From sequence record JN254800.1: a stretch of DNA of 64,000 nucleotides. One strand, 5' to 3'. Below, one piece after another: positions 2,691 to 63,008 of the stretch (the first letter of the stretch is position 1; each line of letters begins with the position of its first letter). The position numbers were made by a program, and so were the translations under genes. A model generated the notes under the pieces. The model worked only from the letters and a program-made list of their open reading frames with translations, did not search any database and was not told the origin of the DNA. Source of the stretch: Pseudomonas phage NH-4.

Positions 2691-2732
2691 GGTCGGTTCC
2701 TTTTGTCTGAAGGGTTTCGCATTTCAATGGAG

Positions 2733-4852: not shown

Positions 4853-4955
4853 GTCGATTCTCCTGTTTGGAAAGTTCGTTTCGATGAGTTGACTATACGC
4901 CAGAAGTGGAAAAACGGTAGCGATTTCTCACTACCGTTCGTCGGGTCGAAGACAA

Positions 4956-7005: not shown

Positions 7006-9303
7006 ATGTTTAAACTTTCCTGGATATTCGGGCGCAAAAAGGATAATGCTGCCTGTTCTGAATCGGCGCCGGAGAAAGTCGCACAAATCCCTCAACACGA
7101 TCCGCTCGACCCCATGATAAAGCTGGGAAGGATTCGCGGCTGGAACGTCGAGCCGGAGAAAGCCCCGGTCATTCGTAGTGTGAAAGATTTCCTGGAGCCG
7201 GGCCTATCTGTCGCAATGGATAGTGCGTATGGTGATGGACCAACCCCGGCCGCGAAGGCTGCTGCGGGCGGCCAGAATCCCTATGTCGTCCCGACTATGT
7301 TGCAGGACTGGTACAATTCCCAAGGGTTCATCGGATACCAAGCTTGCGCAATCATTTCCCAACACTGGTTGGTGGACAAAGCTTGTTCCATGTCTGGGGA
7401 AGACGCAGCACGGAACGGATGGGAACTCAAATCGGACGGCAGGAAGCTATCCGATGAACAAAGCGCGCTGATCGCCCGGCGCGACATGGAGTTTCGCGTC
7501 AAAGACAACCTCGTCGAACTCAACAGATTCAAGAACGTTTTCGGCGTTCGCATCGCGCTGTTCGTTGTGGAGTCTGACGATCCGGACTACTACGAAAAAC
7601 CGTTCAATCCGGATGGAATCACGCCCGGCTCCTACAAGGGAATCTCCCAGATCGATCCATACTGGGCGATGCCGCAGCTCACTGCCGGCTCGACGGCCGA
7701 TCCGTCTTCCGAACATTTCTATGAGCCGGATTTCTGGATTATCAGCGGGAAGAAATATCATCGCAGCCATCTAGTAGTCGTTCGCGGACCGCAGCCGCCA
7801 GACATCCTGAAGCCTACATACATCTTCGGCGGTATCCCGCTCACCCAGAGAATCTATGAGCGCGTGTATGCGGCGGAACGGACGGCGAACGAAGCCCCGC
7901 TGCTTGCCATGTCGAAGCGAACCAGCACCATTCACGTTGACGTGGAAAAGGCCATCGCGAATGAAGACGCTTTCAACGCTCGCCTGGCGTTCTGGATTGC
8001 CAATCGCGATAACCACGGCGTGAAAGTCTTGGGTACTGATGAAAGCATGGAGCAGTTCGACACGAACCTTGCCGACTTCGACAGCATCATCATGAACCAA
8101 TATCAGCTGGTCGCTGCCATCGCCAAGACTCCAGCTACGAAGCTCCTCGGCACTTCTCCAAAAGGATTCAATGCCACTGGTGAGCACGAAACGATTTCTT
8201 ATCACGAAGAACTGGAGTCCATTCAAGAGCACATATTCGACCCACTTCTTGAACGCCACTATTTGCTTCTGGCGAAGTCGGAAGAAATCGATGTGCAGCT
8301 GGAAATCGTCTGGAACCCTGTGGACTCCACGTCCAGCCAGCAACAAGCCGAATTGAACAATAAGAAAGCCGCGACCGATGAAATCTACATCAACTCTGGC
8401 GTTGTGTCGCCGGATGAAGTTCGCGAGCGTCTGCGCGACGATCCGCGTTCCGGCTACAACCGACTCACCGACGATCAGGCAGAAACCGAACCGGGCATGT
8501 CTCCGGAAAACCTGGCCGAATTCGAGAAGGCCGGTGCACAGTCGGCCAAGGCGAAAGGCGAAGCCGAGCGAGCCGAAGCCCAGGCGGGCGCCGTAGAGGG
8601 CGCAGGCGCCCCGGTTCCCGCCGCTCCACGCGGGACTAAGCCTCTCGCGAAAGCGGCCGAGGAAGGGGCCAGCGAGGCCGCTGAACCGCCGTCGCGGCCG
8701 GACCCCAAGGCCGAGCTGCGGAACTTGTTGGTCGATCTTTTATCGAAGCTCCAAGACCTGGACGACATTAAGGCGCCGGACGGCGTAGACATAGAGTACA
8801 ATGATGCGCCTGGCTTAAAGCGCACGTCCAAACCTGGCGTGTCTGGCATGGAGCCTTCGGTGTTTTCGTCCAACCGCATCGTCGGGCCTCGTGATCATTC
8901 GGAACTCCAGAGAATCAAGGTGAATGGAATAACCACCTTGATCGAAAATCCGCGCGGAAGCATTCGGCAAGGAAAGGATGGGAGTTGGCGAGTTCAGATG
9001 AAACACCACTACGGGTTCATCAAGGGAACGAAAGGCGCTGATGGGGATGAAGTCGATTGCTTCGTCGGTCCGAATCTGGGATCCAAACGGGTCTTCGTCG
9101 TCAACCAGGTGAACAAGGAAGGTCAGTTTGACGAGCACAAGTGCATGCTCGGCTTCAACAACATCAACGATGCGAAGTCTGGATATCTGTCCTGCTTCCG
9201 CCCAGGTTGGGATGGTCTCGGCTCCATACATGAAGTTGACCTACCCGCGTTCCGTCGCTGGCTGGCGAACGGCGACACAACCAAACCGTTCGGGGGCGAG
9301 TGA
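7006..9303 (+). CDS. portal protein (DUF1073-like core) fused to C-terminal inorganic-pyrophosphatase-like domain
   Basis: The N-terminal 490 aa give a portal-like profile, and the gene sits immediately upstream of the Mu-F-like gene. aa 497-575 are an Ala/Glu/Pro-rich linker. aa 632-765 carry PPase motifs: IENPRGS, HYGFIKGT, DGDEVDC and FDEHK. Confidence 0.7.
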   Translation: MFKLSWIFGRKKDNAACSESAPEKVAQIPQHDPLDPMIKLGRIRGWNVEPEKAPVIRSVKDFLEPGLSVAMDSAYGDGPTPAAKAAAGGQNPYVVPTMLQDWYNSQGFIGYQACAIISQHWLVDKACSMSGEDAARNGWELKSDGRKLSDEQSALIARRDMEFRVKDNLVELNRFKNVFGVRIALFVVESDDPDYYEKPFNPDGITPGSYKGISQIDPYWAMPQLTAGSTADPSSEHFYEPDFWIISGKKYHRSHLVVVRGPQPPDILKPTYIFGGIPLTQRIYERVYAAERTANEAPLLAMSKRTSTIHVDVEKAIANEDAFNARLAFWIANRDNHGVKVLGTDESMEQFDTNLADFDSIIMNQYQLVAAIAKTPATKLLGTSPKGFNATGEHETISYHEELESIQEHIFDPLLERHYLLLAKSEEIDVQLEIVWNPVDSTSSQQQAELNNKKAATDEIYINSGVVSPDEVRERLRDDPRSGYNRLTDDQAETEPGMSPENLAEFEKAGAQSAKAKGEAERAEAQAGAVEGAGAPVPAAPRGTKPLAKAAEEGASEAAEPPSRPDPKAELRNLLVDLLSKLQDLDDIKAPDGVDIEYNDAPGLKRTSKPGVSGMEPSVFSSNRIVGPRDHSELQRIKVNGITTLIENPRGSIRQGKDGSWRVQMKHHYGFIKGTKGADGDEVDCFVGPNLGSKRVFVVNQVNKEGQFDEHKCMLGFNNINDAKSGYLSCFRPGWDGLGSIHEVDLPAFRRWLANGDTTKPFGGE

Positions 9304-10139
9304 TGGCATTCAAGGCCTCCAAAAAGCGCGAACGCCGGGCACCTCTTCCAGTCGGAAGAGGGAAGCCCATAATTCCATCGGCAGGAATCGAGGCCTGGTA
9401 TCGAAAGCAGATGAAGGATATGTCCAAGCTCATGATCGCCGACTATCGAAGCGAGATTGAGAATGCACTGTCCCAGCCTGCGGCCGAACGGTTCTTCGCC
9501 AGCGACGAATCCGTTAACGTTCTGTTCAAGATGACCCTTCGAAGCCTACAGCAGCGATGGAGCCGCATTTTTGAAGGCTTCGCGGCCAAGATCGCCCCGG
9601 AGTTTGTTAACCGGACCGAAGAAGCGGCCACCGCCGCGACCCTGCACAGCTTGTCTGTGGCCGGCGTCGATCAGCCAAGAGCTGCGTACAATGAGAGCGT
9701 CAGGAATACCCTGGAGGCAGCAACTACTTACAACCATACTCTCATCACCAGGATTCAAGAGGAAGTCCACGAGAAGATTTACACATCAGTAATGTTGTCT
9801 CTGACTTCCCCAAATCCGGAAGAGCAAGGAACTTCCGGCATAACGAACGCACTTCGCAAAGTCGGGAAGTTCTCTGAAGATCGAATCGAACTCATCGCAA
9901 GAGATCAAACCAGCAAGCTTTACAGTTCTCTGAGCGATGAGAGAATGGCGGAAAATGGAGTCGAGGAATTCGAGTGGATGCACTCTTCTGCCGGCAAGAC
10001 TCCTCGCCATACCCACCTGGAGAAAGATGGGAAAAGGTTCAAGCTGAATGACCCCAGACTTTGGGAGGGTCCGAAGGCCGACCAGGGGCCGCCAGGATGG
10101 GCGATTAACTGTAGGTGCAGAAAGATACCAATCATTTGA
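9303..10139 (+). CDS. head morphogenesis protein (Mu gpF / SPP1 gp7 family)
   Basis: Start overlaps the portal stop (TGATG). A C-terminal CRC-containing motif (INCRCRK) is typical of the Phage_Mu_F family, and the position after the portal fits. Confidence 0.65.
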   Translation: MAFKASKKRERRAPLPVGRGKPIIPSAGIEAWYRKQMKDMSKLMIADYRSEIENALSQPAAERFFASDESVNVLFKMTLRSLQQRWSRIFEGFAAKIAPEFVNRTEEAATAATLHSLSVAGVDQPRAAYNESVRNTLEAATTYNHTLITRIQEEVHEKIYTSVMLSLTSPNPEEQGTSGITNALRKVGKFSEDRIELIARDQTSKLYSSLSDERMAENGVEEFEWMHSSAGKTPRHTHLEKDGKRFKLNDPRLWEGPKADQGPPGWAINCRCRKIPII

Positions 10140-10157
10140 TATCGATAGGAGCGCTAT

Positions 10158-10364
10158 ATGCCGTTAGTTCATGGCACTTCCAATGAGGCTCGTTCTGAAA
10201 ACATCAAGCGGGAGATCGAAGCCGGTAAAGACCCAAAGCAGGCTGCGGCCATCGCTTACTCCATCCAGCGCAGTGAGAAAGGGAAGACGGCGAAAGATTG
10301 TTCGCCTGAGCTCGTTGCCGATCTTCGCGCCCTGGTGGACGCTCTGTCGAGGCTCGTGAAATGA
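10158..10364 (+). CDS. small hypothetical protein (68 aa), moron-like position
   Basis: RBS TAGGAG 7 nt before the ATG. No similarity recognised. Confidence 0.45.
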
Positions 10365-10501
10365 ACCGCAAGACATGCCGGCGCCGACTCGTGGTCGATG
10401 TAATCAGGGCCAATATTCACGGCGGATTCTTCAGCCTGAAGTTTGCCGCCATCGATTTGGCAATCATCGGCGTCGCCATCTTGATGACTTTTGGCCGATA
10501 A
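10361..10501 (+). CDS. possible small membrane protein (46 aa)
   Basis: ATG overlaps the upstream TGA. C-terminal hydrophobic [15 protein letters not shown]. Below the ORF-track length cutoff. Confidence 0.25.
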
Positions 10502-10544
10502 TGCTGAGAAAATCTGGATTCTGACTAAAAATTCTAGTCCGGAT

Positions 10545-10880
10545 AGCCGCAAGTTACCGTTTACGGAAAATAGCAGTAATTTGGAAAGCCTACTGCCGCG
10601 AGGCTTTAACAGAGCTAGTTCCTAATTTCCGATTTAGCCGCGTGCTTCAAAAGTATATAGCCTGGGAAATTAGAAGTAACGTTCCAATAGAATTCATCTA
10701 TAAGTAACGTTATAATATAACGTCAATCTATATGCTCTAGACGTATTGAAATTCAATTTTTAATTGGTAAATTGGTAATTTGGATTAGTTTAGGAGTTGA
10801 AAGTCTCGCGGCAGTAGGCTTAGACAAATCCCGTAAAGTTTCCGAGACCAAATTACCGGATTTTCGCGGCTGAGGAAACT
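10545..10880. repeat. AT-rich non-coding cassette copy 1: 17-bp perfect inverted repeats (10586-10602 / 10805-10821) flanking a palindrome-rich AT core
   Basis: AAGCCTACTGCCGCGAG and its reverse complement lie 202 bp apart. The internal palindrome ACGTTATA-A-TATAACGT is at 10707-10723. Homologous to 56370-56720. Confidence 0.7.
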
Positions 10881-10959
10881 GGTAATTAGATCATAATATA
10901 AATTATAATGTAAGTTAACAGTCGCGGCTACATCTAATTATTGTTCCGCTTATTTACCC

Positions 10960-10995
10960 TTAGATGTACTGCGTATATAATACAGCCATAGTCCA
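10960..10995 (+). promoter_or_regulatory. sigma70-like promoter for scaffold/capsid genes (TTTACC N17 TATAAT)
   Basis: ATTTACCCTTAGATGTACTGCGTATATAAT lies about 25 nt upstream of ATG 11014. Confidence 0.4.
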
Positions 10996-11013
10996 CGACT
11001 CTTCGAATTAACG

Positions 11014-12447
11014 ATGACAAAGTCGAAAAGAAAAATTGACGAAAATGGATATATGACCATCGAGGGCTGCCCGATCAGCTCTTATGGCGTTTTCCAGTAT
11101 TCTGCTGGTCAACTCGGTCTTCCGGGCGATCCGACGCGGATTGTCAACGTATATCGCCCGGAGTCTGCCGTCAGCGATCCTGAGTACATCGAATCTCTGA
11201 AGAATCTCCCGTTGATCGACGAGCACGAAATGCTGTCGGGATTCGACGACGATGACGACAGCGTGGCCCCCGAAGACAAAGGGGTGGAGGGCATCATCAC
11301 CTCCAACGCTTACTACGAAGCCCCATGGGCTCGCGGCGATATCCGCATCTATTCCCGCAACATGCAGAATCAGCTGGAAAGGGGCAAAGAAGACCTGTCC
11401 CTAGGCTATAGTTGCCGCTACACTGAGCAACCCGGCATCTGGAACGGGACGCCTTATGAAGTCGTCCAGGACAAGATGCGCGGCAACCACATCGCCCTGG
11501 TAAAAGAGGGTCGTGTGCCGGGGGCCAGAGTATTGGATGGTCTGTGTTTTGACCATCTCAGTTTTGATTTCAGACCATCCGATGAGGGTAATGAAATGAG
11601 TCTCAAGAAAGCCAAGCGGAAGCCCCCTGTCCAGCGCGTAGGGCAAGCTGCTGACTCGGCGGTCGAAGAGTTGCGCACCCTGTGGCCGAAACTCTCTGCG
11701 TCTGTCCAGAAGTTCCTGGGCGAAGAAGAGCAGGAGCCGGAGCATCAGGAAGGCGCCGCTCCGGCCGAACCGACCGACAGCGAGCACCTGACCGAGCATC
11801 CGACTCTGGAAGGCGCCCAGAAGGACGACGAAGAGCAGGAAGAGGAGCCTTCCGTTGTCGATCCGGCCGTGGCCGCCGTCGAGCCGGAGCATCAAGAAAG
11901 CGCCGCATCCGAAATGTCCGGTGAAGGCGAAGTCGCCGAACTGATCTCTCAGGTCAAAGCCATTCTGGCTCGACTGGAGGGAACGGTAGCCGAAGGGGCA
12001 GACGAAGAGCATGGCGAAGGTCAAGATGTCGTCGAGGGTTTGGAGGAGCAGAGCAGCCTCAGCGGCTCGCAAACCGCCAGCGACGATGGTGGTGAGAGCA
12101 AGGATAACAGCGAGGAACTTCCTGAAATGGCACAGAAGAACGCGCAAGATGCTGCAATTCGCGGTCTCTATCGCGACATTGCTGCTAAAGATCGCCTCTA
12201 CAAGCGTCTTAGCTCCGTGGTTGGTGCGTTCGATCACCGAGCTATGGACTCGGCTGAAGTCGCTGTTTACGGCGTGAAAAAGCTGAACATCAGCTGCGCG
12301 AAGGGCCAGGAAGCTCTGGCGCTCGACATGTACCTGAAAGGCGTCGAAGCCTCGCGCGGCGCGGCCAGCCGTCAATCGAAAGCCCAGGATTCGGCCGGTT
12401 CTGCTCCGCAGTGCGCCGAGCTGGACAGCTACCTGAAGGGGGAGTAA
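11014..12447 (+). CDS. scaffolding protein with N-terminal DUF2213-like domain (possible prohead protease/scaffold)
   Basis: The N-terminal 190 aa are globular. An acidic E/Q/P-rich low-complexity middle is followed by a C-terminal helical region. Located between the Mu-F-like gene and the capsid gene. Confidence 0.55.
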   Translation: MTKSKRKIDENGYMTIEGCPISSYGVFQYSAGQLGLPGDPTRIVNVYRPESAVSDPEYIESLKNLPLIDEHEMLSGFDDDDDSVAPEDKGVEGIITSNAYYEAPWARGDIRIYSRNMQNQLERGKEDLSLGYSCRYTEQPGIWNGTPYEVVQDKMRGNHIALVKEGRVPGARVLDGLCFDHLSFDFRPSDEGNEMSLKKAKRKPPVQRVGQAADSAVEELRTLWPKLSASVQKFLGEEEQEPEHQEGAAPAEPTDSEHLTEHPTLEGAQKDDEEQEEEPSVVDPAVAAVEPEHQESAASEMSGEGEVAELISQVKAILARLEGTVAEGADEEHGEGQDVVEGLEEQSSLSGSQTASDDGGESKDNSEELPEMAQKNAQDAAIRGLYRDIAAKDRLYKRLSSVVGAFDHRAMDSAEVAVYGVKKLNISCAKGQEALALDMYLKGVEASRGAASRQSKAQDSAGSAPQCAELDSYLKGE

Positions 12448-12450
12448 CTC

Positions 12451-13086
12451 ATGTTCCAGAAACAAGTTTACCGCCAGTACACTCCTGGTTTTCCGGGCGA
12501 TCTGATCGAGGACGGCCCGAAGCGGGCGCGGCCGGGTCGAATCATGTCTCTGTCTGCCGTAAATCCGGCTGCCACCGCCACCGGCCCCAACCGCATCAGT
12601 CGCGCTTTCGGTTACGCCGGTGACGTCAGCGCCCTCGGTGAAGGTCAGCCGAAGACCATCGCGGCTCGTGCTTCTGAAGTCGTGATCGGCGGCGCCAACT
12701 TCTTCGGCGTCCTCGGCCATCCGAAGCATTATGCCCTGTTCGGTTCGGCCGGCGACTCCCTGGCTCCCAGCTATGATCTGCCCGATGGCGCCGAAGGCGA
12801 GTTCTTCGACATGGCCACCGGCCTGGTCGTCGAAATTTTCAACGGCGCCGCAGCCGCCCTGGACCTGGACTATGGTGACCTGGTCGCCTATGTCCCCAAC
12901 AACCTGGCTACCGCCGACAACGCGCTTGGCCTGCCGGCCGGCGCCCTGGTTGGCTTCAAGACTGGCTCCATGCCGACCGGCTTGGTCCAGATTCCCAACG
13001 CACGCATCGTTAACGCCATCAGTCTGCCGGCCCAGTCGGCGGGGAATCTGGTTGCTGGCGTTACCATCGTCCAGCTCACGCAGTAA
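12451..13086 (+). CDS. head structural protein (211 aa, Gly/Ala-rich; decoration or minor capsid protein)
   Basis: Lies between the scaffold and major capsid genes, with RBS GGGGGAG. Confidence 0.4.
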   Translation: MFQKQVYRQYTPGFPGDLIEDGPKRARPGRIMSLSAVNPAATATGPNRISRAFGYAGDVSALGEGQPKTIAARASEVVIGGANFFGVLGHPKHYALFGSAGDSLAPSYDLPDGAEGEFFDMATGLVVEIFNGAAAALDLDYGDLVAYVPNNLATADNALGLPAGALVGFKTGSMPTGLVQIPNARIVNAISLPAQSAGNLVAGVTIVQLTQ

Positions 13087-46919: not shown

Positions 46920-46962
46920 TTGTCGATTCCTTTTGGTTGAAGGGTTTCGCGTTTCGATGAGG

Positions 46963-47000
46963 GAATATTACGCCCACCTGATCCAGAAGTAAAGCACTTT
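46963..47000 (-). promoter_or_regulatory. sigma70-like early promoter (copy 2 of conserved family), -35 TTTACT N17 -10 TAATAT plus conserved leader
   Basis: The - strand reads AAGTGCTTTACTTCTGGATCAGGTGGGCGTAATAT, then TCCCTCATCGAAACGCGAAACCCTTCAACCAAAAGGAATCGACAAATG. Confidence 0.5.
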
Positions 47001-47006
47001 TGTAAA

Positions 47007-48112: not shown

Positions 48113-48997
48113 TTACTCCTCCTCACCTTCGGAACCATCGGCGCCCTGATCTTCACCGTCGTGCTCCTGGCCTTCGTCATCGGCCTTCTCGTCATCGCCC
48201 TGGCCAGCTTCGTCTTCCTTCGAAGCGATGGCAACCAGATCGACCCAGCCCATGATTTCCAGCTTGCTCAGGTAGCTGCGGACAGAGGTGCCATAGAGCA
48301 GATGGGCCACCTTCTCGCCGAAGGCTTCGATTTCGACCGGCTCACCAACGGTGCAGTGCTCGTTGATGTAAGCGAACACCTTGCCGCGAGTCGAGAAGGC
48401 CTGCGGAGTGCCATGGCCGTCGCCGGTCGGGATGAAGTGGGTGGCGCGGGGGCGACGCGAGCCATTGGACTTCAGGTCTTCGCGGCGGGCTTCGGCCTTC
48501 TTACGGCGCTCTTCCTGCTCTTCCTTGCGGCGCTGCTTCTCGGCTTCGCGCTCGGCCTTCTTCTGCTCGGCCAGGCGCTTGCGCTCTTCTTCGCGAGCGA
48601 CTTTCTGAGCTTCCTGGGCGGCCTTCTTCTCTTCGGCCTTTTTGGCGCGCTCGGCTTCCTTCTCGGCCTTCTTCTGCTCGCGCTCGGCTTCCTTGGCCTT
48701 CGCCTTCTCGGCCTGCTCGGCTTCCTTCAACTTGGCCTTTTCAGCACGCTCGGCCTCCTTGGCGGCGGCCTTTTCCTTCGCCTTCTCGGCGCGCTCTGCT
48801 TCCTTCTTCTCACGCTCGGCCTTGCGCTTCTCTTCGCGCTCGGCTTTCTTCTGTTCGGCTTCCTTGGCCTTGGCCTCGGCCTTCTCGGCGCGCTCGCGCT
48901 CTTTACGTTGACGCTCGGCGGCCTTCTCGGCCTTGCGCAGGGCGGCTGCTTGTTCCTTGGTCAGCTCTTCGCCTTGGGTCTGTTCGTTCTGGTCCAT
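48113..48997 (-). CDS. charged ER/K-repeat protein (about 190 aa of AEKAKEAER-type repeats, TolA domain II-like single alpha helix) with C-terminal globular domain and acidic tail
   Basis: Repeats (A/E)(K/R)A(E/K)KEAER across aa 20-185. Globular region KVFAYINEHCTVGEPVEIEAFGEKVAHLLYG..., then a C-terminal DDEKADDEGQEHDGEDQGADGSEGEEE tail. Confidence 0.55.
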   Translation of the reverse strand: MDQNEQTQGEELTKEQAAALRKAEKAAERQRKERERAEKAEAKAKEAEQKKAEREEKRKAEREKKEAERAEKAKEKAAAKEAERAEKAKLKEAEQAEKAKAKEAEREQKKAEKEAERAKKAEEKKAAQEAQKVAREEERKRLAEQKKAEREAEKQRRKEEQEERRKKAEARREDLKSNGSRRPRATHFIPTGDGHGTPQAFSTRGKVFAYINEHCTVGEPVEIEAFGEKVAHLLYGTSVRSYLSKLEIMGWVDLVAIASKEDEAGQGDDEKADDEGQEHDGEDQGADGSEGEEE

Positions 48998-52520: not shown

Positions 52521-52970
52521 ATGGAACAGAAGAAACCTTCACCAGTAGATGGAGTCATCATGACCAGCCTCGACGTTCTCCGGAAAGCGAAGCCCGAAGC
52601 ACAGGACGAGTATGCCGTGTCCATGTTCGCAACGGCGATTCGCCAGAAACTGCAACGCTCCCGCGATAAAGGCCGAGGCGGCTGGATCGACTGCGACGAA
52701 GATATTCTGATCAACGGATTCGCCGAACATGCGCTGAAGGGAAATGAGAACAACCTCTTGGACCTGGCGACGTTCCTGATGTTCATGTGGGTGCGCGGCA
52801 TCGATGATGCGAAGATTCCCCCGGCGCTCGAAAAGGCGCGACAGCACAAGATCATGGAAGCCTGGAGTCGAATCCATGAAGATGGCCTAAACTCCGCCAG
52901 AAAGGCGAGTGCTGCGCGACAGTTCGTGGAAGTGCCTCGACGCAAGGGGCGCCCGGAGCGACTTGCATGA
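52521..52970 (+). CDS. hypothetical protein (149 aa)
   Basis: RBS AAGGAG. Confidence 0.45.
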   Translation: MEQKKPSPVDGVIMTSLDVLRKAKPEAQDEYAVSMFATAIRQKLQRSRDKGRGGWIDCDEDILINGFAEHALKGNENNLLDLATFLMFMWVRGIDDAKIPPALEKARQHKIMEAWSRIHEDGLNSARKASAARQFVEVPRRKGRPERLA

Positions 52971-54043
52971 AGCCTCACGAAATAAGACTGGCACAGGCCG
53001 AAGAGTTCCTGCGCGAACTCGGCCGAGGGATTCCGGACGACGAACGGGTAATGGTCGGCTACGCTGAAGAGGCCACAGTCCAAACCGACGAGAACGGCCG
53101 CAAGCTCAACGCCGGCTGGTGGCCCGTGCCCTGGAAGGAAGGCAAGTACATCAATTCCAGATCCAACGCATATGCCTGTATCTCGTCGTCCATCAAGACG
53201 CCCAACCCGAAGACCGGCCAGATGCGATACTGGCGCGGCGAGGCCTCTTTCGGCCACGGCCTGGCGTTAATGGTCGATGACATCGGCTCCGGCAAAGGGT
53301 CCAAGGGCGACTTCGACCGCGACGAGTTCCGCGAGCGCCTAGAGCCGACCGCGATTGTGGAGACTTCGCCGAACAACTACCAGTTCTGGTATTTCTTCAA
53401 AGAGCCGATGTCCCACATGCTCCAGTTCAAGGCGCTGCTCTATTCGTTCGTGGACCAGGTGCTAAAGAAAGGCGGCGACAACACCGTCAAGGACGTCAGC
53501 CGTTACGGCCGGATGCCATTCGGCTTCAACAACAAGCGCGGGGAAGACGGCAAGTTCAAATATGCCGACGAAAACGGCAAGCCCGAACTCGTGCGACTGT
53601 TCAGTGCCGACTATTCCAAGCGCTACTCGCCAGAAGAGATCGCCCAGGCATTCGGCGTCCGCATCATCATGCCACAGATGAAGAAGGTGGAGATAAACCG
53701 CGACGATTGGTTGTATGACCAAGTATGGTTGAAGTATGCCGAGCACATCTGCACGAAATACAAGATGGGAGAAGCGGCAGGCGGCCAGGTCCAGCAGAAT
53801 ATGTCCGGCAAATACCGCATCCGCTGTCCCTGGGGCGACGAGCACACCAACGGCGATCCTTTCGGCGCATACTTTCGCGGACCGATACCTGGCGCCGAGC
53901 ACGAATATGTGTTCGGATGCGGGCACGATACTTGCCGCAAAGAGCATCGACGGACATGGGCGGCCTTCACCGATGAAGTCGTCCTGCCCTATATCGTAGA
54001 ACAATTGGAACGCATTAACCGCCGTCACATCGGTGAGGAGTAG
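52967..54043 (+). CDS. archaeo-eukaryotic primase (AEP/Prim-Pol) domain protein with C-terminal zinc-binding region
   Basis: hhhDhD motif LMVDDIGSG and sxH-like SPNNYQFWYFF, with C-terminal CPWGDEH...CGHDTC. Confidence 0.6.
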   Translation: MKPHEIRLAQAEEFLRELGRGIPDDERVMVGYAEEATVQTDENGRKLNAGWWPVPWKEGKYINSRSNAYACISSSIKTPNPKTGQMRYWRGEASFGHGLALMVDDIGSGKGSKGDFDRDEFRERLEPTAIVETSPNNYQFWYFFKEPMSHMLQFKALLYSFVDQVLKKGGDNTVKDVSRYGRMPFGFNNKRGEDGKFKYADENGKPELVRLFSADYSKRYSPEEIAQAFGVRIIMPQMKKVEINRDDWLYDQVWLKYAEHICTKYKMGEAAGGQVQQNMSGKYRIRCPWGDEHTNGDPFGAYFRGPIPGAEHEYVFGCGHDTCRKEHRRTWAAFTDEVVLPYIVEQLERINRRHIGEE

Positions 54044-54381: not shown

Positions 54382-56121
54382 ATGATTATCGACGAAGATA
54401 ATATTTTTGATGATGGCGAATCAGGGTCCAGTGAGTTTGATCTCACACAGATAGAAGATGCTGGAATGGACCCTTTGATGACCGCCGCGAGCAAGGCGGC
54501 CGATGATGCGATTGCGAGGAATGAGACGTACCGAGCACAAAAGGCGGCAAAGTATGCCGAGGCGTATGCGGAACCAGATCTGAAGAAGCGAGCGCGATTG
54601 TTGATGCTCGATCAGGCCTTTGATCTTCCGGTCAGCCGGCTGGTGAAAGGACCGTTCGACGACTTCATCACAAAGTACAGCTCTACTTCAGACAGCAACT
54701 ACCTCGCGGTCTATGATACTTTGTTCTGTAAGGGCGACGGAACTGTCCCACACCCGCACTTCGACGAGTTTCGCGGCCGGCTGGTGGACCATCGCGGCGT
54801 GGCGTTCAACAACAAGACCCTCGATCCGATTGACCTGATGGGCGCCCTCGCGGCTGCGGCCTTGGACGATCCCTCGATTAAGAAGACGATTGAGACTTGC
54901 TGCGTTTGGGCGCGTCGATATCGCCGCAACTCGCTGATCGAGACGTTTGAGAAGAAGATACCGGATTGGGACGGCGAAGAGCGGATCGAAACGCTGCTGA
55001 TCGACTTGTTCAAACCGTTCGACACCGAGCTTAACCGGATGGTGAGCAAGTATTTCTGGCTGAGCTTGTACTGCCGCATCAACTACCCTGGAATCTCGGC
55101 GCCGATTTCGTTGGCGTTGATTGGTGGGCAGGATGCGGGGAAATCATATTTCGGCTTGCTGATCTGTAAGGAACTGTCCGGTGGGCGCGATCTGGCTCCA
55201 GTTCAGCTCGACCTGAGCCGACACGACCAGACGCCGTTCCTGCGCAACATCACCGGCAACTCGGTTATTGCGAACGTCGGCGAAATGTCCGGCTTCAAAA
55301 AGGGCGACATGGAACGCATCAAAGAATTCCTGGTGCGATCTTCGGATACATTCGATCAGAAGTTTGAGCCTGGCGAAACGATCAAGCGACAATGGATCAC
55401 CATCATGGACGGCAACGGATACGATGGACTCCAGCGGGACGACTCCGGCAACCGTCGATTCTATCCGATGTTCGTGGCACAACTTCCCGACGAAGATGGA
55501 AAGCCGAACTGGGTTAAGCCGGGCGATGGTAATGAACCGTTCAAGGTGGACTTCACCGACTTCGGCCGCAAATTCTGGCAAGCGATGGCTGAATGCCGCG
55601 CATGGATCGAAGAGCATGGTGTCGATGGATACCTGGATATGGTGTCGGAAGCGAACCGCGAAGTGCAGAAGTTCTCTATTTCGGAAATGGAGAATGCGCG
55701 TGGCGTGGTTCGTGATGACACGATTGATATGTATCTGATCAACGTGCTGATCAGTTGCGAGTTCGAAGAGATCAAGCCTGGCAGGAATTCAAAGAATCCT
55801 GGATGGAGAGTTGACACTGTAGCCATTCTGAAATGGTTCGATATTCTCGCCAGGAAGAAGCCGATTTCTCGCCACTTAACTCCGCACCTGAAGGCGCTGG
55901 GGTTCGTCCCGAACAAGAACGGCCTGGCTGGTTGGTGCCTGCCCGTCGATAAGGTTGCGCCTGGATGGACGAATAGTATGCAAACCACGCTGCCGCCGTT
56001 CAATGATGCGCTTGTGTACTTGCTGAGGAAGGGCGACCCGGATATCACTGATGAGGCCGCCATGGCAAAGATTCGGGCAGTCCGGGCCGAGCGAGCCAAG
56101 ATTTTGGGCGAGGATTTCTGA
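54382..56121 (+). CDS. D5-like SF3 helicase (phage/plasmid primase C-terminal helicase, P-loop NTPase)
   Basis: Walker A IGGQDAGKS. 579 aa following the AEP primase gene. Confidence 0.6.
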   Translation: MIIDEDNIFDDGESGSSEFDLTQIEDAGMDPLMTAASKAADDAIARNETYRAQKAAKYAEAYAEPDLKKRARLLMLDQAFDLPVSRLVKGPFDDFITKYSSTSDSNYLAVYDTLFCKGDGTVPHPHFDEFRGRLVDHRGVAFNNKTLDPIDLMGALAAAALDDPSIKKTIETCCVWARRYRRNSLIETFEKKIPDWDGEERIETLLIDLFKPFDTELNRMVSKYFWLSLYCRINYPGISAPISLALIGGQDAGKSYFGLLICKELSGGRDLAPVQLDLSRHDQTPFLRNITGNSVIANVGEMSGFKKGDMERIKEFLVRSSDTFDQKFEPGETIKRQWITIMDGNGYDGLQRDDSGNRRFYPMFVAQLPDEDGKPNWVKPGDGNEPFKVDFTDFGRKFWQAMAECRAWIEEHGVDGYLDMVSEANREVQKFSISEMENARGVVRDDTIDMYLINVLISCEFEEIKPGRNSKNPGWRVDTVAILKWFDILARKKPISRHLTPHLKALGFVPNKNGLAGWCLPVDKVAPGWTNSMQTTLPPFNDALVYLLRKGDPDITDEAAMAKIRAVRAERAKILGEDF

Positions 56122-56178: not shown

Positions 56179-56369
56179 GGCGTACATTAGATTCCGGCGT
56201 TGGGCGGGATTGGTAGAAGTGAATACAGTAATTTGGACCAGTTTCGAGCGCGAAAATGGAAAGTCGATAGATTTTCGGTATCGGTTTAGCGTGTATGGTG
56301 GATGGATTTTGCGTGAAATGTTGAGAAATTGCGTGTTTGAGGTGGACTTTTCGTGGGAAATAGCCGCAA

Positions 56370-56720
56370 ATTACTGTATAGCGATTCTGAGCGGTAATTT
56401 GGGAAGCCTACTGCCGCGTGGGTTAGCGGGCCAATTTCCTAATTTCCGGTTTTTCGAGCATGGGTTAAAACTATTCTACAGCGAAAATCGATTGCACAAT
56501 CCTAATAGAAAAAATCTATCACGGACGTTACCTATCTTTAAAATTAATAAAATTAATAGTAATTTGGTAATTTGGTAAACTTTAGTATTTGAAAGCCTCG
56601 CGGCACTAAGCTTGTACATATCCCGTCAAGTTTCCGATTCCAGCTAGCTCGCGGCAGGGTCGCCGGAAACTTCCGGACTTACAATCCATGGGTCGCGGCA
56701 ACACCACGGCGGACTAAGCG
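56370..56720. repeat. AT-rich non-coding cassette copy 2 (homologous to 10545-10880) with imperfect inverted 17-mers (56404-56420 / 56597-56613)
   Basis: Shares left block GTAATTTGG.AAGCCTACTGCCGCG.GG...TTCCTAATTTCCG and right block TGGTAATTTGG...TTGAAAG.CTCGCGGCA.TA.GCTT...ATCCCGT.AAGTTTCCGA with copy 1. Confidence 0.65.
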
Positions 56721-56794
56721 GCAAGTGCCAAAACTCGACGAACGGAACCGGAAATTTGGGAGCGCGACAGAATAGCTCAGCTGGACATATTTCT

Positions 56795-56975
56795 AACATT
56801 CGATTTAACACTCAATCCAAACACTCACCACCATCGTCTCCCACCAACAGCCGACTCGACCCTCACCCACCAGCAGACCGCCCATATAACATCCTATAAC
56901 ACCACCTAACACTCATTCACCATCAAACCCACCCAGACCTACAGCCCACCCACAAGCAGCCCATAGACGCGATCC
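56795..56975 (+). other. G-depleted C/A-rich tract (about 5% G, about 40% C) in leader of TerS-like gene
   Basis: Counted composition: 1-7 G per 60 nt between 56821 and 56940. Non-coding, with stops in all frames. Confidence 0.7.
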
Positions 56976-57090
56976 CTGGCCCCATAGTACAATCGCGCCA
57001 TACTCAGTGTCGCGGCAGAGCACCAGGGGCCATCCGCCAACCAAGCCACCACGACGACTCCAGAATCGAACTCCAGGGACGCAGCAACAA

Positions 57091-57663
57091 ATGACCGCCA
57101 AATTCTACAGCCCCGACGATTTAGTCACGCCACAGGAATTCGCAGACCCGCATTTCGCGGCGATCAACCAAAAGCGATTCGACCTGTACATCGACCTGCG
57201 CGTCCAAGGTTACAGCTCCTGGCGGGTCTTCCGGGCCATCTGGGGCGAGGAGCATATGGACGGTCCCGCGCAGGCCCGCATCTTCGCGATGGAGTCCAAC
57301 CCGTACTATCGCAAGCAGTTCAAGGCCAAGTTGAACGCGACCAAAACGTCCGATTTGTGGAATCCAAAGACGGCGCTCCACGAACTCCTCCAGATGGTTC
57401 GTGACCCCACCGTCAAGGACTCCAGCCGTCTGTCGGCCATCAAGGAATTGAACGTTTTGGCTGAAATCACGTTCGTGGACGAGTCGGGCAAGACCAGGAT
57501 CGGTCGCGGCCTGGCCGACTTCTACGCATCAGAAGCCGAGGCTCAGACCGCGACCGTCGCTGCCGCGGCCGAAGCCAATGGCTATGTTCCGGAAGGCGAA
57601 GAGGGCGATTTCCCGTCCCCGACGCCGGAACCGACCGAGGAAGATCGCGCCAACCCCATTTAG
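57091..57663 (+). CDS. HTH DNA-binding protein, terminase small subunit-like
   Basis: N-terminus LVTPQEFADPHF...LRVQGYSS...AQARIFAMESNPYYRKQFKAKL resembles the TerS HTH (LTPKQE..F...Y...AGYS) pattern. Acidic C-terminus. Confidence 0.35.
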   Translation: MTAKFYSPDDLVTPQEFADPHFAAINQKRFDLYIDLRVQGYSSWRVFRAIWGEEHMDGPAQARIFAMESNPYYRKQFKAKLNATKTSDLWNPKTALHELLQMVRDPTVKDSSRLSAIKELNVLAEITFVDESGKTRIGRGLADFYASEAEAQTATVAAAAEANGYVPEGEEGDFPSPTPEPTEEDRANPI

Positions 57664-59352: not shown

Positions 59353-59664
59353 TCAATAAGGCTGCTTGTTGTATTCGACCAGAGACATACCGGCCGGAAC
59401 TTTGAAGCGTATGTATTCGATCATCATCGCAGTGCGACGCCGATTCGTGCCAGACTCGTCGTTGACGAATAGTTCGCACTGGTGCGGAATGACTCGCGTC
59501 ACCAGGCCTTCGCCTTTCGAGCCGTAGAACTTGATGTAGGCCGCGACGCCTCGCGTCATGTTCAGATGGATCGTTTCGCAGAGTCGCTGCGCGGCCGACG
59601 CGCTGGACAGATCAGTCGGGCTGACCGTCACCCAGTAATGTGCGTTTTGTTCTTTATCGGACAT
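59353..59664 (-). CDS. hypothetical protein (103 aa)
   Basis: ORF in the - strand early block. Confidence 0.45.
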   Translation of the reverse strand: MSDKEQNAHYWVTVSPTDLSSASAAQRLCETIHLNMTRGVAAYIKFYGSKGEGLVTRVIPHQCELFVNDESGTNRRRTAMMIEYIRFKVPAGMSLVEYNKQPY

Positions 59665-62613: not shown

Positions 62614-62654
62614 GTCGCAATCCTCTTTTTGGAGTGTTTCGCGTTTCGATGAGG

Positions 62655-62692
62655 TAACTATACCTCAGTCACCTCATCGAGTAAAGCACTTT
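62655..62692 (-). promoter_or_regulatory. sigma70-like early promoter (copy 3), -35 TTTACT N17 -10 TATAGT, with 10-bp inverted-repeat operator
   Basis: The - strand reads AAGTGCTTTACTCGATGAGGTGACTGAGGTATAGTTACCTCATCGA. The operator arms are TCGATGAGGT (62650-62659) and ACCTCATCGA (62681-62690). Confidence 0.55.
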
Positions 62693-62738
62693 TGAACATA
62701 TTATCTGAAATTTCTGTGAGACGGATCCATCGGCGGAT

Positions 62739-62924: not shown

Positions 62925-62963
62925 TTCGAGTTCCTCTTTGGGGCGATTCGTGTTTCGATGAGA

Positions 62964-63000
62964 TGACTATAACTCAGTCACCTCATCGAGTAAAGCGCTT
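62964..63000 (-). promoter_or_regulatory. sigma70-like early promoter (copy 4), TTTACT N17 TATAGT with inverted-repeat operator
   Basis: AAGCGCTTTACTCGATGAGGTGACTGAGTTATAGTCATCTCATCGA. Confidence 0.5.
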
Positions 63001-63008
63001 CTGAGGAA

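What the first reader, a model, noticed from the sequence alone, without database searches (positions are those of the whole stretch)
10545..10880. AT-rich non-coding cassette with 17-bp perfect inverted repeats, copy 1 (candidate origin or regulatory hub)
A roughly 510-bp intergenic gap sits between the head-morphogenesis and scaffold genes. It contains AAGCCTACTGCCGCGAG (10586-10602) and its exact reverse complement (10805-10821), 202 bp apart. They flank an AT-rich core with the palindrome ACGTTATA-A-TATAACGT (10707-10723) and GGTAAATTGGTAATTTGG iterons. The whole approximately 340 bp is duplicated at 56370-56720, next to the primase-helicase genes. No ORF of 60 aa or more is present. The pattern fits a replication origin, a packaging or regulatory site, or a MITE-like element with terminal inverted repeats.
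Basis: seen in the sequence. Interest (0 to 1): 0.7.

Follow-up and report, generated by a model that had tools for sequence, protein, structure and literature searches.

The report
Second copy of phage packaging-start element
The flagged AT-rich repeat is real; it is a conserved second copy of the element, next to the small-terminase gene, where this Pseudomonas phage family starts packaging its DNA, and what the second copy does is still unknown.

Summary
The window is a Pbunavirus (PB1-like Pseudomonas myophage). A 512-bp non-coding gap (10502-11013) contains a 17-nt perfect inverted repeat (22 nt with one mismatch), a 17-nt palindrome and GTAATTTGG repeats. A diverged copy (67-75% identity over about 300 bp) lies at 56357-56645.

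Copy 2 sits directly upstream of the small terminase gene terS (57091-57663, near-identical to PDB 7UXE). Published packaged-DNA ends map into its AT-rich core at window 56489. Those data are JG024 nanopore read starts at 59,376 and the Ab27/Ab29 fixed read ends. A mapped promoter (14-1 P040) overlaps its tandem repeats.

The same two-copy layout recurs in Wifcevirus and Kylevirus. One copy precedes terS and one precedes the head protease gene. One further copy each was seen in a Salmonella phage (before terS) and in two metagenomic relatives (before the head protease gene). Short repeats differ by lineage, GCGGC(A/T) motifs are shared, and the core is AT-rich with dyad symmetry. WFH and Kyle genome records also start inside the terS-proximal core.

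So the flagged copy 1 is best read as a paralogue of the pac (packaging initiation) module, probably an auxiliary terminase-binding site. A replication origin is not excluded but lacks specific support. MITE and structured-RNA readings are rejected.

The parts
10543..10558 (+). Copy 1, outer left block ATAGCCGCAAGTTACC. It contains a GCCGC motif in left-hand orientation.
   Evidence: Conserved between copy 1 and copy 2 (56360-56375) and across Pbunavirus copy 1 sequences.
10576..10584 (+). Copy 1, left lineage-specific repeat GTAATTTGG.
   Evidence: All 7 occurrences of this 9-mer in the window lie in or beside the two elements.
10586..10607 (.). Copy 1, left arm of the 22-nt inverted repeat (AAGCCTACTGCCGCGAGGCTTT). 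It carries the family-wide TGCCGCG motif.
   Evidence: pair I12, 95% complementary. A G:C to A:T double change keeps the pairing in L010 and L012.
10619..10637 (+). Copy 1, conserved block TTCCTAATTTCCGATTT.
   Evidence: Shared with copy 2 (56436-56452).
10638..10765 (.). Copy 1, AT-rich core. It holds the 17-nt palindrome (10707-10723). The position homologous to the copy 2 packaged-DNA end falls at about 10671. The phage E215 GenBank record is opened at 10684|10685.
   Evidence: GC is 0.39 for 10540-10880 against about 0.55 for the window. No transcription start was mapped here in 14-1.
10766..10783 (+). Copy 1, tandem repeats GGTAAATTGGTAATTTGG.
   Evidence: Homologous to the copy 2 repeats that form promoter P040.
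10800..10821 (.). Copy 1, right arm of the inverted repeat (AAAGTCTCGCGGCAGTAGGCTT). It carries the family-wide CGCGGCA motif.
   Evidence: The motif is conserved in L013, FEC19, WFH, Kyle and PCSE1.
10830..10856 (.). Copy 1, conserved block CCCGTAAAGTTTCCGA followed by an inverted GTAATTTGG (10848-10856, minus strand).
10864..10928 (+). Copy 1, right flank. It holds further TCGCGGC motifs at 10864 and 10922, each 58 nt from the previous one (10806), and GGTAATTAG at 10881.
   Evidence: G(T/G)CGCGGCTA(C/T)ATC is also conserved at the same place in FEC19.
10953..10989 (+). Sigma-70 promoter of the head protease/scaffold operon (TTTACC-17-TATAAT). The transcription start is at 10989 (14-1 P014).
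   Evidence: Best promoter-scan hit, 10/12. 14-1 start site 13257 in ONT-cappable-seq Table S3, mapped through alignment A2.
56357..56454 (.). Copy 2, left half. It holds ATAGCCGCAAATTAC, GTAATTTGG (56394), the left arm AAGCCTACTGCCGCGTGGGTTA (56404-56425) and TTCCTAATTTCCG (56436). This half is mosaic among strains.
   Evidence: 14-1 carries a different left half, with the boundary near 56467.
56455..56558 (.). Copy 2, AT-rich core containing the mapped packaged-DNA end (pac cut) at 56489 +/- 5.
   Evidence: Ab27 and Ab29 records start at 56489 and PA8P1 at 56491. Essoh 2015 reports a fixed read termination. JG024 nanopore reads start at 59,376, which equals window 56489.
56559..56613 (+). 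Copy 2, tandem GTAATTTGG repeats that form promoter P040. The transcription start is at 56593, the first bases of the right arm (56592-56613).
   Evidence: 14-1 start site 59399 with upstream sequence ...AGTAATTTGGTAATTTGGTATACTTTAGTATTTGA. Transcription unit TU045 runs through terS. Mapped through alignment A3.
56622..56700 (+). Copy 2, right flank. It holds CCCGTCAAGTTTCCGA and further TCGCGGCA motifs at 56649 and 56693.
57091..57663 (+). terS, the small terminase gene, served by copy 2. A second promoter (P041) starts transcription at about 57001.
   Evidence: phmmer hit to PDB 7UXE 'Small terminase', E = 6e-125. P041.

Best explanation
The flagged element (copy 1, about 10543-10930) is a conserved paralogue of the phage's packaging-initiation (pac) module. 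It is not a stand-alone origin or a mobile element.

The module has four features. It has an AT-rich core of about 100-130 bp. Inverted GCGGC(A/T)-type motifs, shared by the whole phage group, flank the core. Short repeats specific to each lineage (GTAATTTGG here) also flank it. Together these give strong dyad symmetry.

Shown:
- The terS-proximal copy (copy 2) contains the end of packaged DNA at window 56489.
- It also contains a promoter for terS.
- In three genera the phage keeps one copy before terS and one before the head protease/scaffold operon, with the same lineage-specific repeats in both.

Inferred:
- The same phage protein(s) bind both copies. The ring-shaped small terminase is the most likely candidate.
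- At copy 2, bound TerS positions TerL to cut the core, and headful packaging proceeds rightward through terS.
- Copy 1 binds the same protein but is not the main cut site. It may act as a secondary or auxiliary terminase site, for example as a low-frequency initiation site or a synapsis partner. It may also couple terminase level to promoter P014 of the head genes.
For: - **Homology of the two copies.** All motif classes are shared, in the same order and orientation.
- **Copy 2 is next to terS.** ORF76 equals PDB 7UXE small terminase (E = 6e-125).
- **Packaged-DNA ends lie in the copy 2 core.** 36 of 161 long JG024 reads start at 59,376 and a matching restriction fragment was seen. That position equals window 56489. 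Ab27 and Ab29 records start there, from a 'single fixed termination' of reads. SCUT-S1 PhageTerm places pac 'in an AT-rich region'.
- **Other genera agree.** Nucleotide 1 of the WFH record (3.7-kb terminal repeat) and of the Kyle record lies inside the AT-rich core of their terS-proximal copies.
- **Linkage is to terS, not to the primase.** In FEC19 the gene next to copy 2 is a TerS homologue (39% identity, E = 5e-41), while the primase is 8 kb away. Kyle shows the same pattern.
- **Two-copy layout with lineage-specific repeats.** Repeats are GTATCATCC in FEC19/WFH and GGTTATT/AATATCCGA in Kyle. They are ATATAACG/AATATCG in PCSE1, TTATCSGATAA in L013 and TTGCGG in L018. GCGGC(A/T) motifs are shared by all. 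Both copies were seen in Pbunavirus, FEC19 and Kyle; only one copy was examined in PCSE1, L013 and L018.
- **Dyad symmetry on both DNA strands** in all lineages examined, z = -4 to -9.
- **Weak hint that copy 1 can be cut.** The E215 record is opened at 10684|10685, about 12 nt from the position homologous to the pac end.
Against: - No study reports read starts at copy 1. Ab27 shows a 'single' fixed termination and JG024 one start site. At most 4 of 297 records are interrupted within copy 1.
- Purified E217 TerS showed no appreciable DNA binding in vitro, according to the review read. TerS binding to these repeats is therefore pure inference.
- Copy 1 is about 20 kb from terS. No known pac system needs a second distant site.
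- The repeat-binding protein could be something other than terminase.
- The Banzai PhageTerm analysis found no significant peak anywhere.
Confidence: 0.5

Rival explanations
1. Replication origin(s). Lineage-specific repeats bind a phage initiator, the AT-rich core melts, and the inverted GC-rich arms serve as priming or loading sites. The phage encodes a RepB'-type primase and a VapE-like helicase. IncQ oriV has iterons, an AT-rich stretch and inverted ssiA/ssiB sites. Two-site precedents recalled from memory, not checked here, are SPP1 oriL/oriR and P4 ori/crr. The pac cut would then be superimposed on one of the two origins.
For: - The repeats, AT-rich core and dyad symmetry fit origin anatomy.
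- ORF72 is a RepB_primase (PF16793) and ORF74 has a VapE-like domain.
- RSF1010 primes on two 40-nt inverted repeats in oriV.
- In Pbunavirus and PCSE1, copy 2 follows the primase gene.
- The SCUT-S1 authors speculated that the AT-rich pac region 'could be a replication origin'.
Against: - Linkage to replication genes is not conserved. In FEC19 and Kyle copy 2 is 5-8 kb from the primase but always abuts terS.
- In copy 2 the arms are poorly complementary in most strains, and the window's copy 2 has no excess folding (z = -0.7). A hairpin priming site is therefore not maintained there.
- Cumulative GC skew has its minima at about 41 kb and 51 kb, not at either copy.
- No initiation data exist.
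Confidence: 0.2
2. Transcriptional control region. The repeats are operators for a phage regulator, possibly TerS itself. The regulator would control the sigma-70 promoters at the right edge of each copy: P014 for the head protease/scaffold/capsid operon, and P040/P041 for terS. Copy 1 would then be purely a gene-expression switch.
For: - The P040 promoter is built from the tandem repeats and starts at the right arm.
- P014 lies 170 nt downstream of the copy 1 right arm. It is conserved together with a preceding CGCGGCTA motif in FEC19.
- There is no terminator between ORF20 and copy 1.
Against: - Other late promoters mapped in 14-1 (P013, P015-P019) lack the element.
- Distances from the repeats to the promoters differ greatly between the two copies.
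- No transcription start was found inside copy 1. The two promoters predicted there by earlier annotators were not confirmed.
- An element of about 330 bp with dyad symmetry is far larger than a typical operator.
Confidence: 0.15
3. Structured RNA. Copy 1 folds as a long hairpin in read-through mRNA from the portal operon, acting for example as an RNase III processing site or stabiliser for the head-gene transcript.
For: - Copy 1 folds at -110.9 kcal/mol with z = -6.5.
- 55 long-range pairs are 98.7% maintained across seven Pbunavirus sequences, with three pairs changed on both sides.
- No terminator lies upstream.
Against: - The minus strand folds equally well (z = -6.6).
- In other lineages the antisense strand folds as well or better, which indicates DNA-level symmetry.
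- There is no Rfam match.
- The window's copy 2 has no excess folding (z = -0.7), and its mapped transcript starts between the arms.
- The covariation sample amounts to about two independent lineages.
Confidence: 0.05
4. MITE-like selfish element with terminal inverted repeats that inserted twice.
For: Inverted repeats flank an AT-rich, non-coding core, and there are two copies.
Against: - Both copies occupy the same syntenic positions in Pbunavirus, Wifcevirus and Kylevirus (one before terS, one before the head protease gene). Their repeat sequences change with the lineage.
- Both copies are present in essentially all of the 297 Pbunavirus records (297 records, 553 and 609 matching places).
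- The only matches in the phage collection were in the 297 Pbunavirus-type records.
Confidence: 0.02

Closest known systems
pac sites of headful-packaging phages with recognition repeats on both sides of the cut (SPP1 pacL-pacC-pacR; P1 pac)
   Same: - A non-coding or partly coding region at the terS gene.
- Repeated short motifs on both sides of the site where the first cut is made.
- A promoter for terminase genes overlapping the site.
- One fixed DNA end followed by headful packaging.
- Sources: the review text for SPP1 contacts flanking the cut; my own knowledge for P1's hexamer repeats and SPP1 promoters.
   Different: - This module is about 330 bp with extended dyad symmetry.
- It has two motif classes, one shared across genera and one lineage-specific.
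- It exists as two paralogous copies about 20 kb and 46 kb apart, only one of which is next to terS.
- terS is far from terL: about 58 kb in E217 according to the review.
- TerS binding has not been shown.
T4 'twin-ring pac synapsis' model (two apposed pac sequences bound by stacked TerS rings)
   Same: - Two related sequences are proposed to be bound by the small terminase.
[quoted passage not shown]
   Different: - The T4 model, as described in the review read, proposes stacked TerS rings recognising two apposed pac sites.
- Here the two sites are large paralogous intergenic modules conserved across genera.
- No synapsis evidence exists for them.
IncQ (RSF1010) oriV with iterons, an AT-rich region and inverted ssiA/ssiB priming sites
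   Same: - Short repeats, an AT-rich stretch and an inverted repeat.
- The phage encodes a RepB'-family primase.
   Different: - The element tracks terS, not the replication genes.
- Arm complementarity is not maintained in copy 2.
- The arms flank the AT-rich core rather than lying to one side.
- No initiator has been identified.
Putative pac position already reported for Pbunaviruses (JG024 59,376; Ab27 genome start; SCUT-S1 PhageTerm)
   Same: It is the same nucleotide position as the core of copy 2 in this window (56489).
   Different: In the parts of those papers that were read, only a position or an 'AT-rich region' is reported. None of the papers searched or read describes the repeats and inverted-repeat architecture, the paralogous copy upstream of the head protease gene, or the conservation across genera.

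Membership tests
pac (packaging initiation) site of headful phages | Ends of packaged DNA map inside the element. | tested here: met
   Met for copy 2 only. JG024 read starts at 59,376 map to window 56489. Ab27, Ab29 and PA8P1 records start at 56489-56491. WFH and Kyle records start in the homologous core. For copy 1 the only hint is the E215 record opened at 10684|10685, which is inconclusive.
pac (packaging initiation) site of headful phages | Located in or next to the small terminase gene. | tested here: met
   Copy 2 is 400-700 nt upstream of terS in Pbunavirus, FEC19, WFH, Kyle and PCSE1. Copy 1 does not meet this feature: it precedes the head protease gene.
pac (packaging initiation) site of headful phages | Sequence-specific binding by TerS, and cleavage by TerL. 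| not testable with these tools
   According to the review, E217 TerS showed no appreciable DNA binding in vitro. The DNA used in that test could not be checked because the primary paper is not held.
Iteron-type replication origin (IncQ oriV / SPP1 ori / P4 ori-crr type) | Repeated initiator-binding motifs next to an AT-rich unwinding region. | tested here: met
   This is sequence anatomy only.
Iteron-type replication origin (IncQ oriV / SPP1 ori / P4 ori-crr type) | Conserved linkage to the initiator or replication genes. | tested here: not met
   The element is adjacent to the primase in Pbunavirus and PCSE1, but 8 kb away in FEC19 and 5.7 kb away in Kyle. It always abuts terS.
Iteron-type replication origin (IncQ oriV / SPP1 ori / P4 ori-crr type) | Replication initiation mapped to the site. 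| not testable with these tools
   No data were found. GC-skew minima lie elsewhere, at about 41 kb and 51 kb, but skew in this phage follows transcription direction.
IncQ ssiA/ssiB-type priming hairpins | Two complementary-strand hairpin sites maintained as an inverted repeat. | tested here: inconclusive
   Copy 1's arms are maintained, with one compensatory change. Copy 2's arms carry 2-4 mismatches in most strains. The RSF1010 sequence could not be retrieved for direct comparison.
MITE / small non-autonomous transposon | Variable presence and dispersed copies, with empty sites in relatives. | tested here: not met
   Both copies sit at fixed syntenic positions in Pbunavirus, Wifcevirus and Kylevirus and occur in essentially all 297 Pbunavirus records. 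Target-site duplications were not examined.
Known structured RNA families (Rfam) or a strand-specific RNA structure | A match to a covariance model, or structure specific to the transcribed strand. | tested here: not met
   There were no Rfam hits at gathering thresholds and no tRNAs. Folding excess is equal on both strands.
Sigma-70 promoter | An experimentally mapped transcription start with -35/-10 elements. | tested here: met
   Met for copy 2 (14-1 P040 start, equal to window 56593) and for P014 just outside copy 1 (10989). Not met inside copy 1: the promoters predicted at 10693-10743 and 10746-10773 have no mapped start site.

The most novel reading that the evidence does not exclude
The PB1-like phage group (Pbunavirus, Wifcevirus, Kylevirus and probably relatives) uses a two-site terminase recognition system. 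Ring-shaped small terminase assemblies would bind lineage-specific repeats in two paralogous, dyad-symmetric modules, one at terS and one at the head-assembly operon. Binding or synapsis of the two sites would license the cut at the terS-proximal core and/or couple head-protein expression to packaging. This would give the first defined, sequence-specific DNA targets for a TerS whose structure is known (E217, PDB 7UXE) but whose DNA binding has so far been undetectable.
Probability: 0.15. Interest if true: 0.75.

Novelty: new variant of a known kind. Interest (0 to 1): 0.5.

Why it matters
How small terminases recognise viral DNA is a long-standing open problem. For E217, a phage of this same genus, the TerS structure is solved but no DNA binding or pac site has been defined. 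The literature on Pbunavirus genome ends is also contradictory.

This analysis ties the reported end position to a defined sequence module. That module contains candidate recognition motifs: GTAATTTGG and GCGGC(A/T). The module changes its repeats from genus to genus, as expected for a co-evolving protein-DNA pair. It also reveals an unexplained, conserved second copy in front of the head genes.

These motifs are directly testable by gel shift, ChIP, plasmid transduction assays, or edits in the existing JG024 yeast-reboot system. Pbunaviruses are among the Pseudomonas aeruginosa phages most used for personalised phage therapy. Knowing the pac module therefore matters for genome engineering, for choosing where to linearise or insert DNA, and for judging transduction risk.

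Tried and rejected
- **Known RNA or tRNA.** A whole-window Rfam scan and a tRNA scan found nothing.
- **Structured RNA.** Folding excess is equal on both strands. It is absent in the window's copy 2, and the mapped transcript starts between the arms.
- **14-1 non-coding RNA candidate.** The single candidate from ONT-cappable-seq lies elsewhere in the genome (62561-62469), not in this element.
- **IncQ-type origin.** I pursued this seriously after finding the RepB' primase and VapE helicase. I downgraded it when the element proved to be linked to terS rather than to the primase in other genera. RSF1010 (M28829) is not in the plasmid collection, so no direct ssi comparison was possible.
- **Primary E217 terminase paper.** PMC10026623 is not held.
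- **Direct search for close relatives of ORF21 and the primase in viral contigs.** It gave few loci. The annotated phage collection was more useful.
- **Earlier predicted sigma-70 promoters inside copy 1.** The palindrome (JG024 paper) and 10746-10773 (LMA2 record) are not supported by mapped start sites.
- **JG024's annotated ORF78 across copy 2.** It is not an intact ORF in this window, so the region is treated as non-coding.

Full report
**1. What the window is**

The window is a PB1-like Pseudomonas myophage (genus Pbunavirus). The region 9000-13000 is 100% identical to phage LMA2. The copy 2 region is 97-99% identical to other Pbunaviruses.

**2. Checking the observation**

- The perfect 17-nt inverted repeat is at 10586-10602 / 10805-10821 and extends to 22 nt with one mismatch.
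- The 17-nt palindrome is at 10707-10723.
- The tandem GGTAAATTGGTAATTTGG is at 10766-10783.
- The gap between ORF20 and the DUF2213 head protease/scaffold gene is 512 bp, with no ORF of 60 aa or more inside the flagged span.

Chance does not explain this. Shuffles of the region never reach a 17-nt repeat. GTAATTTGG occurs seven times in 64 kb, always in or beside the two elements.

The second copy is real but diverged. Identity is 67-75% over about 300 bp, arranged as conserved blocks in the same order and orientation. All 297 Pbunavirus records carry copy 1 at 80-100% identity, as conserved as the neighbouring genes.

**3. What surrounds copy 2**

That is true here. ORF74 (54382-56121) has a VapE-like helicase domain, and ORF72 is a RepB'-type primase.

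The gene immediately downstream is more informative. It is nearly identical to the small terminase of phage E217, PDB 7UXE (E = 6e-125).

In phage 14-1, ONT-cappable-seq maps a transcription start (P040, 59399) whose 50-nt upstream sequence is the tandem GTAATTTGG repeats. The transcript starts at the first bases of the right inverted-repeat arm and runs through terS. A second promoter, P041, lies closer to terS. These starts correspond to window 56593 and about 57001.

In copy 1 no start site was mapped inside the element. The head-operon promoter P014 starts at window 10989, just downstream.

**4. Packaged-DNA ends fall in the core of copy 2**

[quoted passage not shown] The Ab27 and Ab29 records start at window 56489, and PA8P1 starts at 56491.
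- Ipoutcha et al. found 36 of 161 long nanopore reads of JG024 starting at 59,376 +/- 5. They also saw a coverage dip upstream and a matching pac restriction fragment.
- JG024 coordinates equal window coordinates plus 2887, with no indels, so 59,376 is window 56489.
- Several other records (BrSP1, PS44, Pa193) also begin about 607 nt before terS. These may simply follow the Ab27 convention.

**5. The element is a conserved family with lineage-specific repeats**

E. coli phage FEC19 (Wifcevirus)
- The gap before its head protease gene has inverted GTATCATCC repeats plus GTTGCCGCG, then an extremely AT-rich core of about 90 nt, then direct GTATCATCC repeats plus GCGCGGCT.
- A second copy lies next to a gene that is a TerS homologue (39% identity, E = 5e-41).
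- Its primase is 8 kb away.

E. coli phage WFH (Wifcevirus)
- WFH has a reported 3.7-kb terminal repeat.
- Nucleotide 1 of its record lies inside the AT-rich core of its terS-proximal copy.

Pantoea phage Kyle (Kylevirus)
- It has two copies with GGTTATT and AATATCCGA repeats.
- Its record also starts inside the terS-proximal core.
- Its primase is 5.7 kb away.

Salmonella phage PCSE1
- It has the same architecture before terS, with ATATAACG and AATATCG repeats.

Metagenomic relatives L013 and L018
- They have the head-protease-proximal copy, with TTATCSGATAA and TTGCGG repeats.

Across all these lineages GCGGC(A/T) motifs flank the core, inverted on the left and direct on the right. All copies examined except the window's copy 2 show strong dyad symmetry on both strands, z = -4 to -9.

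**6. Interpretation**

Both copies within a genome always share the lineage's own repeats. The same phage protein(s) must therefore recognise both.

Copy 2 is the packaging start and the terS promoter region. The most economical reading is that the module is a terminase recognition platform and that copy 1 is a paralogous, auxiliary site. The closest known layouts have recognition repeats on both sides of the first cut. SPP1 pac is one; P1 pac is another, from my own knowledge.

What copy 1 does is not shown. It is not a reported major cut site. The only hint of cutting is the E215 record, which is opened at 10684|10685, about 12 nt from the position homologous to the pac end.

Copy 1 keeps a much better dyad than copy 2. 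Its 55 long-range pairs are 98.7% maintained across seven sequences, and one G:C to A:T double change preserves the 22-nt arm pairing. This suggests some requirement specific to copy 1.

**7. Rival explanations**

- **Origin of replication.** The anatomy fits (repeats, AT-rich core, inverted arms, RepB' primase). However, the linkage is to terS and not to the replication genes. Arm complementarity lapses in copy 2, and GC skew gives no support. It remains possible, at about 0.2.
- **Promoter control region.** This is plausible in part and is compatible with TerS binding. Other late promoters lack the element.
- **Structured RNA.** Rejected, because folding excess is equal on both strands and the copy 2 transcript starts between the arms.
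- **MITE.** Rejected on fixed synteny across genera.

**8. Novelty**

The pac position in copy 2 is already in the literature as 'putative'. In the papers I could search and read, I found no description of the module's architecture, its second copy, or its conservation with changing repeats across genera. One review suggests that E217 may lack a pac site altogether.

The flagged copy 1 is therefore a new variant of a known kind of element. It gives concrete, testable candidate DNA targets for a structurally characterised small terminase.

**9. Limits**

- Protein binding is entirely inferred.
- Some GenBank record starts may copy earlier conventions.
- The covariation sample is small.

Noticed in passing
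window 56790-57000: There is a C/A-rich, G-poor tract of about 210 nt (ACACTCAATCCAAACACTCACCACC...CCCACCCACAAGCAGCCC). It lies in the long terS 5' leader, between the P040 start (56593) and the P041 start (about 57001). The composition resembles an unstructured, Rho-loading-type sequence.
   Followed up: no
window 2692-2729, 4877-4903, 46933-47003, 62625-62695, 62934-63004: A repeat family (CGTTTCGATGAG..GACTATAC and flanks) recurs at these sites. It is the reverse complement of minus-strand sigma-70 promoters mapped in 14-1, plus a conserved leader (compare 14-1 P009 ...GGCGTATAGTCAACCCA).
   Followed up: partly
window 52967-54043 and 54382-56121: The replication module pairs a RepB'-type primase (PF16793, the IncQ plasmid family) with a VapE-like helicase (PF05272). 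In IncQ plasmids this primase needs specific hairpin sites. How it primes on a 66-kb phage genome is unexplored.
   Followed up: partly
window about 56467 (copy 2): There is a mosaic boundary here. The window and JG024 share one left half of copy 2, while 14-1 carries a very different one. All three are near-identical to the right of about 56467. The recombination junction therefore lies about 22 nt left of the packaged-DNA end. In 14-1 the two arms are a perfect 11-nt inverted repeat (CTTAGTGCCGC / GCGGCACTAAG), whereas the window's arms mismatch.
   Followed up: partly
window 10684|10685 (copy 1 core); record NC_042080.1: The GenBank record of phage E215 is opened exactly here, with no terminal redundancy. 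This is about 12 nt from the position homologous to the pac end of copy 2. It could be coincidence or a secondary cut site.
   Followed up: partly
window 10806, 10864, 10922: Plus-strand TCGCGGC motifs to the right of the copy 1 core are spaced exactly 58 nt apart. In copy 2 the spacings are 51 and 44 nt (56598, 56649, 56693), with a further motif at 57010 just after the P041 start.
   Followed up: no
window 56228, 56394, 56559: Plus-strand GTAATTTGG repeats around copy 2 are spaced 166 and 165 nt apart. One of them (56228) lies well left of the region homologous to copy 1.
   Followed up: no
L028 nt 3700 (phage WFH, NC_048194.1): The right end of WFH's 3.7-kb terminal repeat lies in a 650-nt intergenic gap with none of the repeats of the packaging module. 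A different signal, or headful measurement, must set that end.
   Followed up: partly
window 48150-48930 (minus strand): There is a dense array of short, imperfect, CT-rich direct repeats (families D1, D2, D4, D10, D13). They lie inside the gene annotated in LMA2 as a putative structural / cell-wall-associated protein, whose counterpart in FEC19 is labelled TolA protein.
   Followed up: no
window 56318-56899 (JG024 ORF78 equivalent): JG024 annotates a 193-aa ORF across copy 2. It is not intact in this window, which supports treating the region as non-coding.
   Followed up: yes
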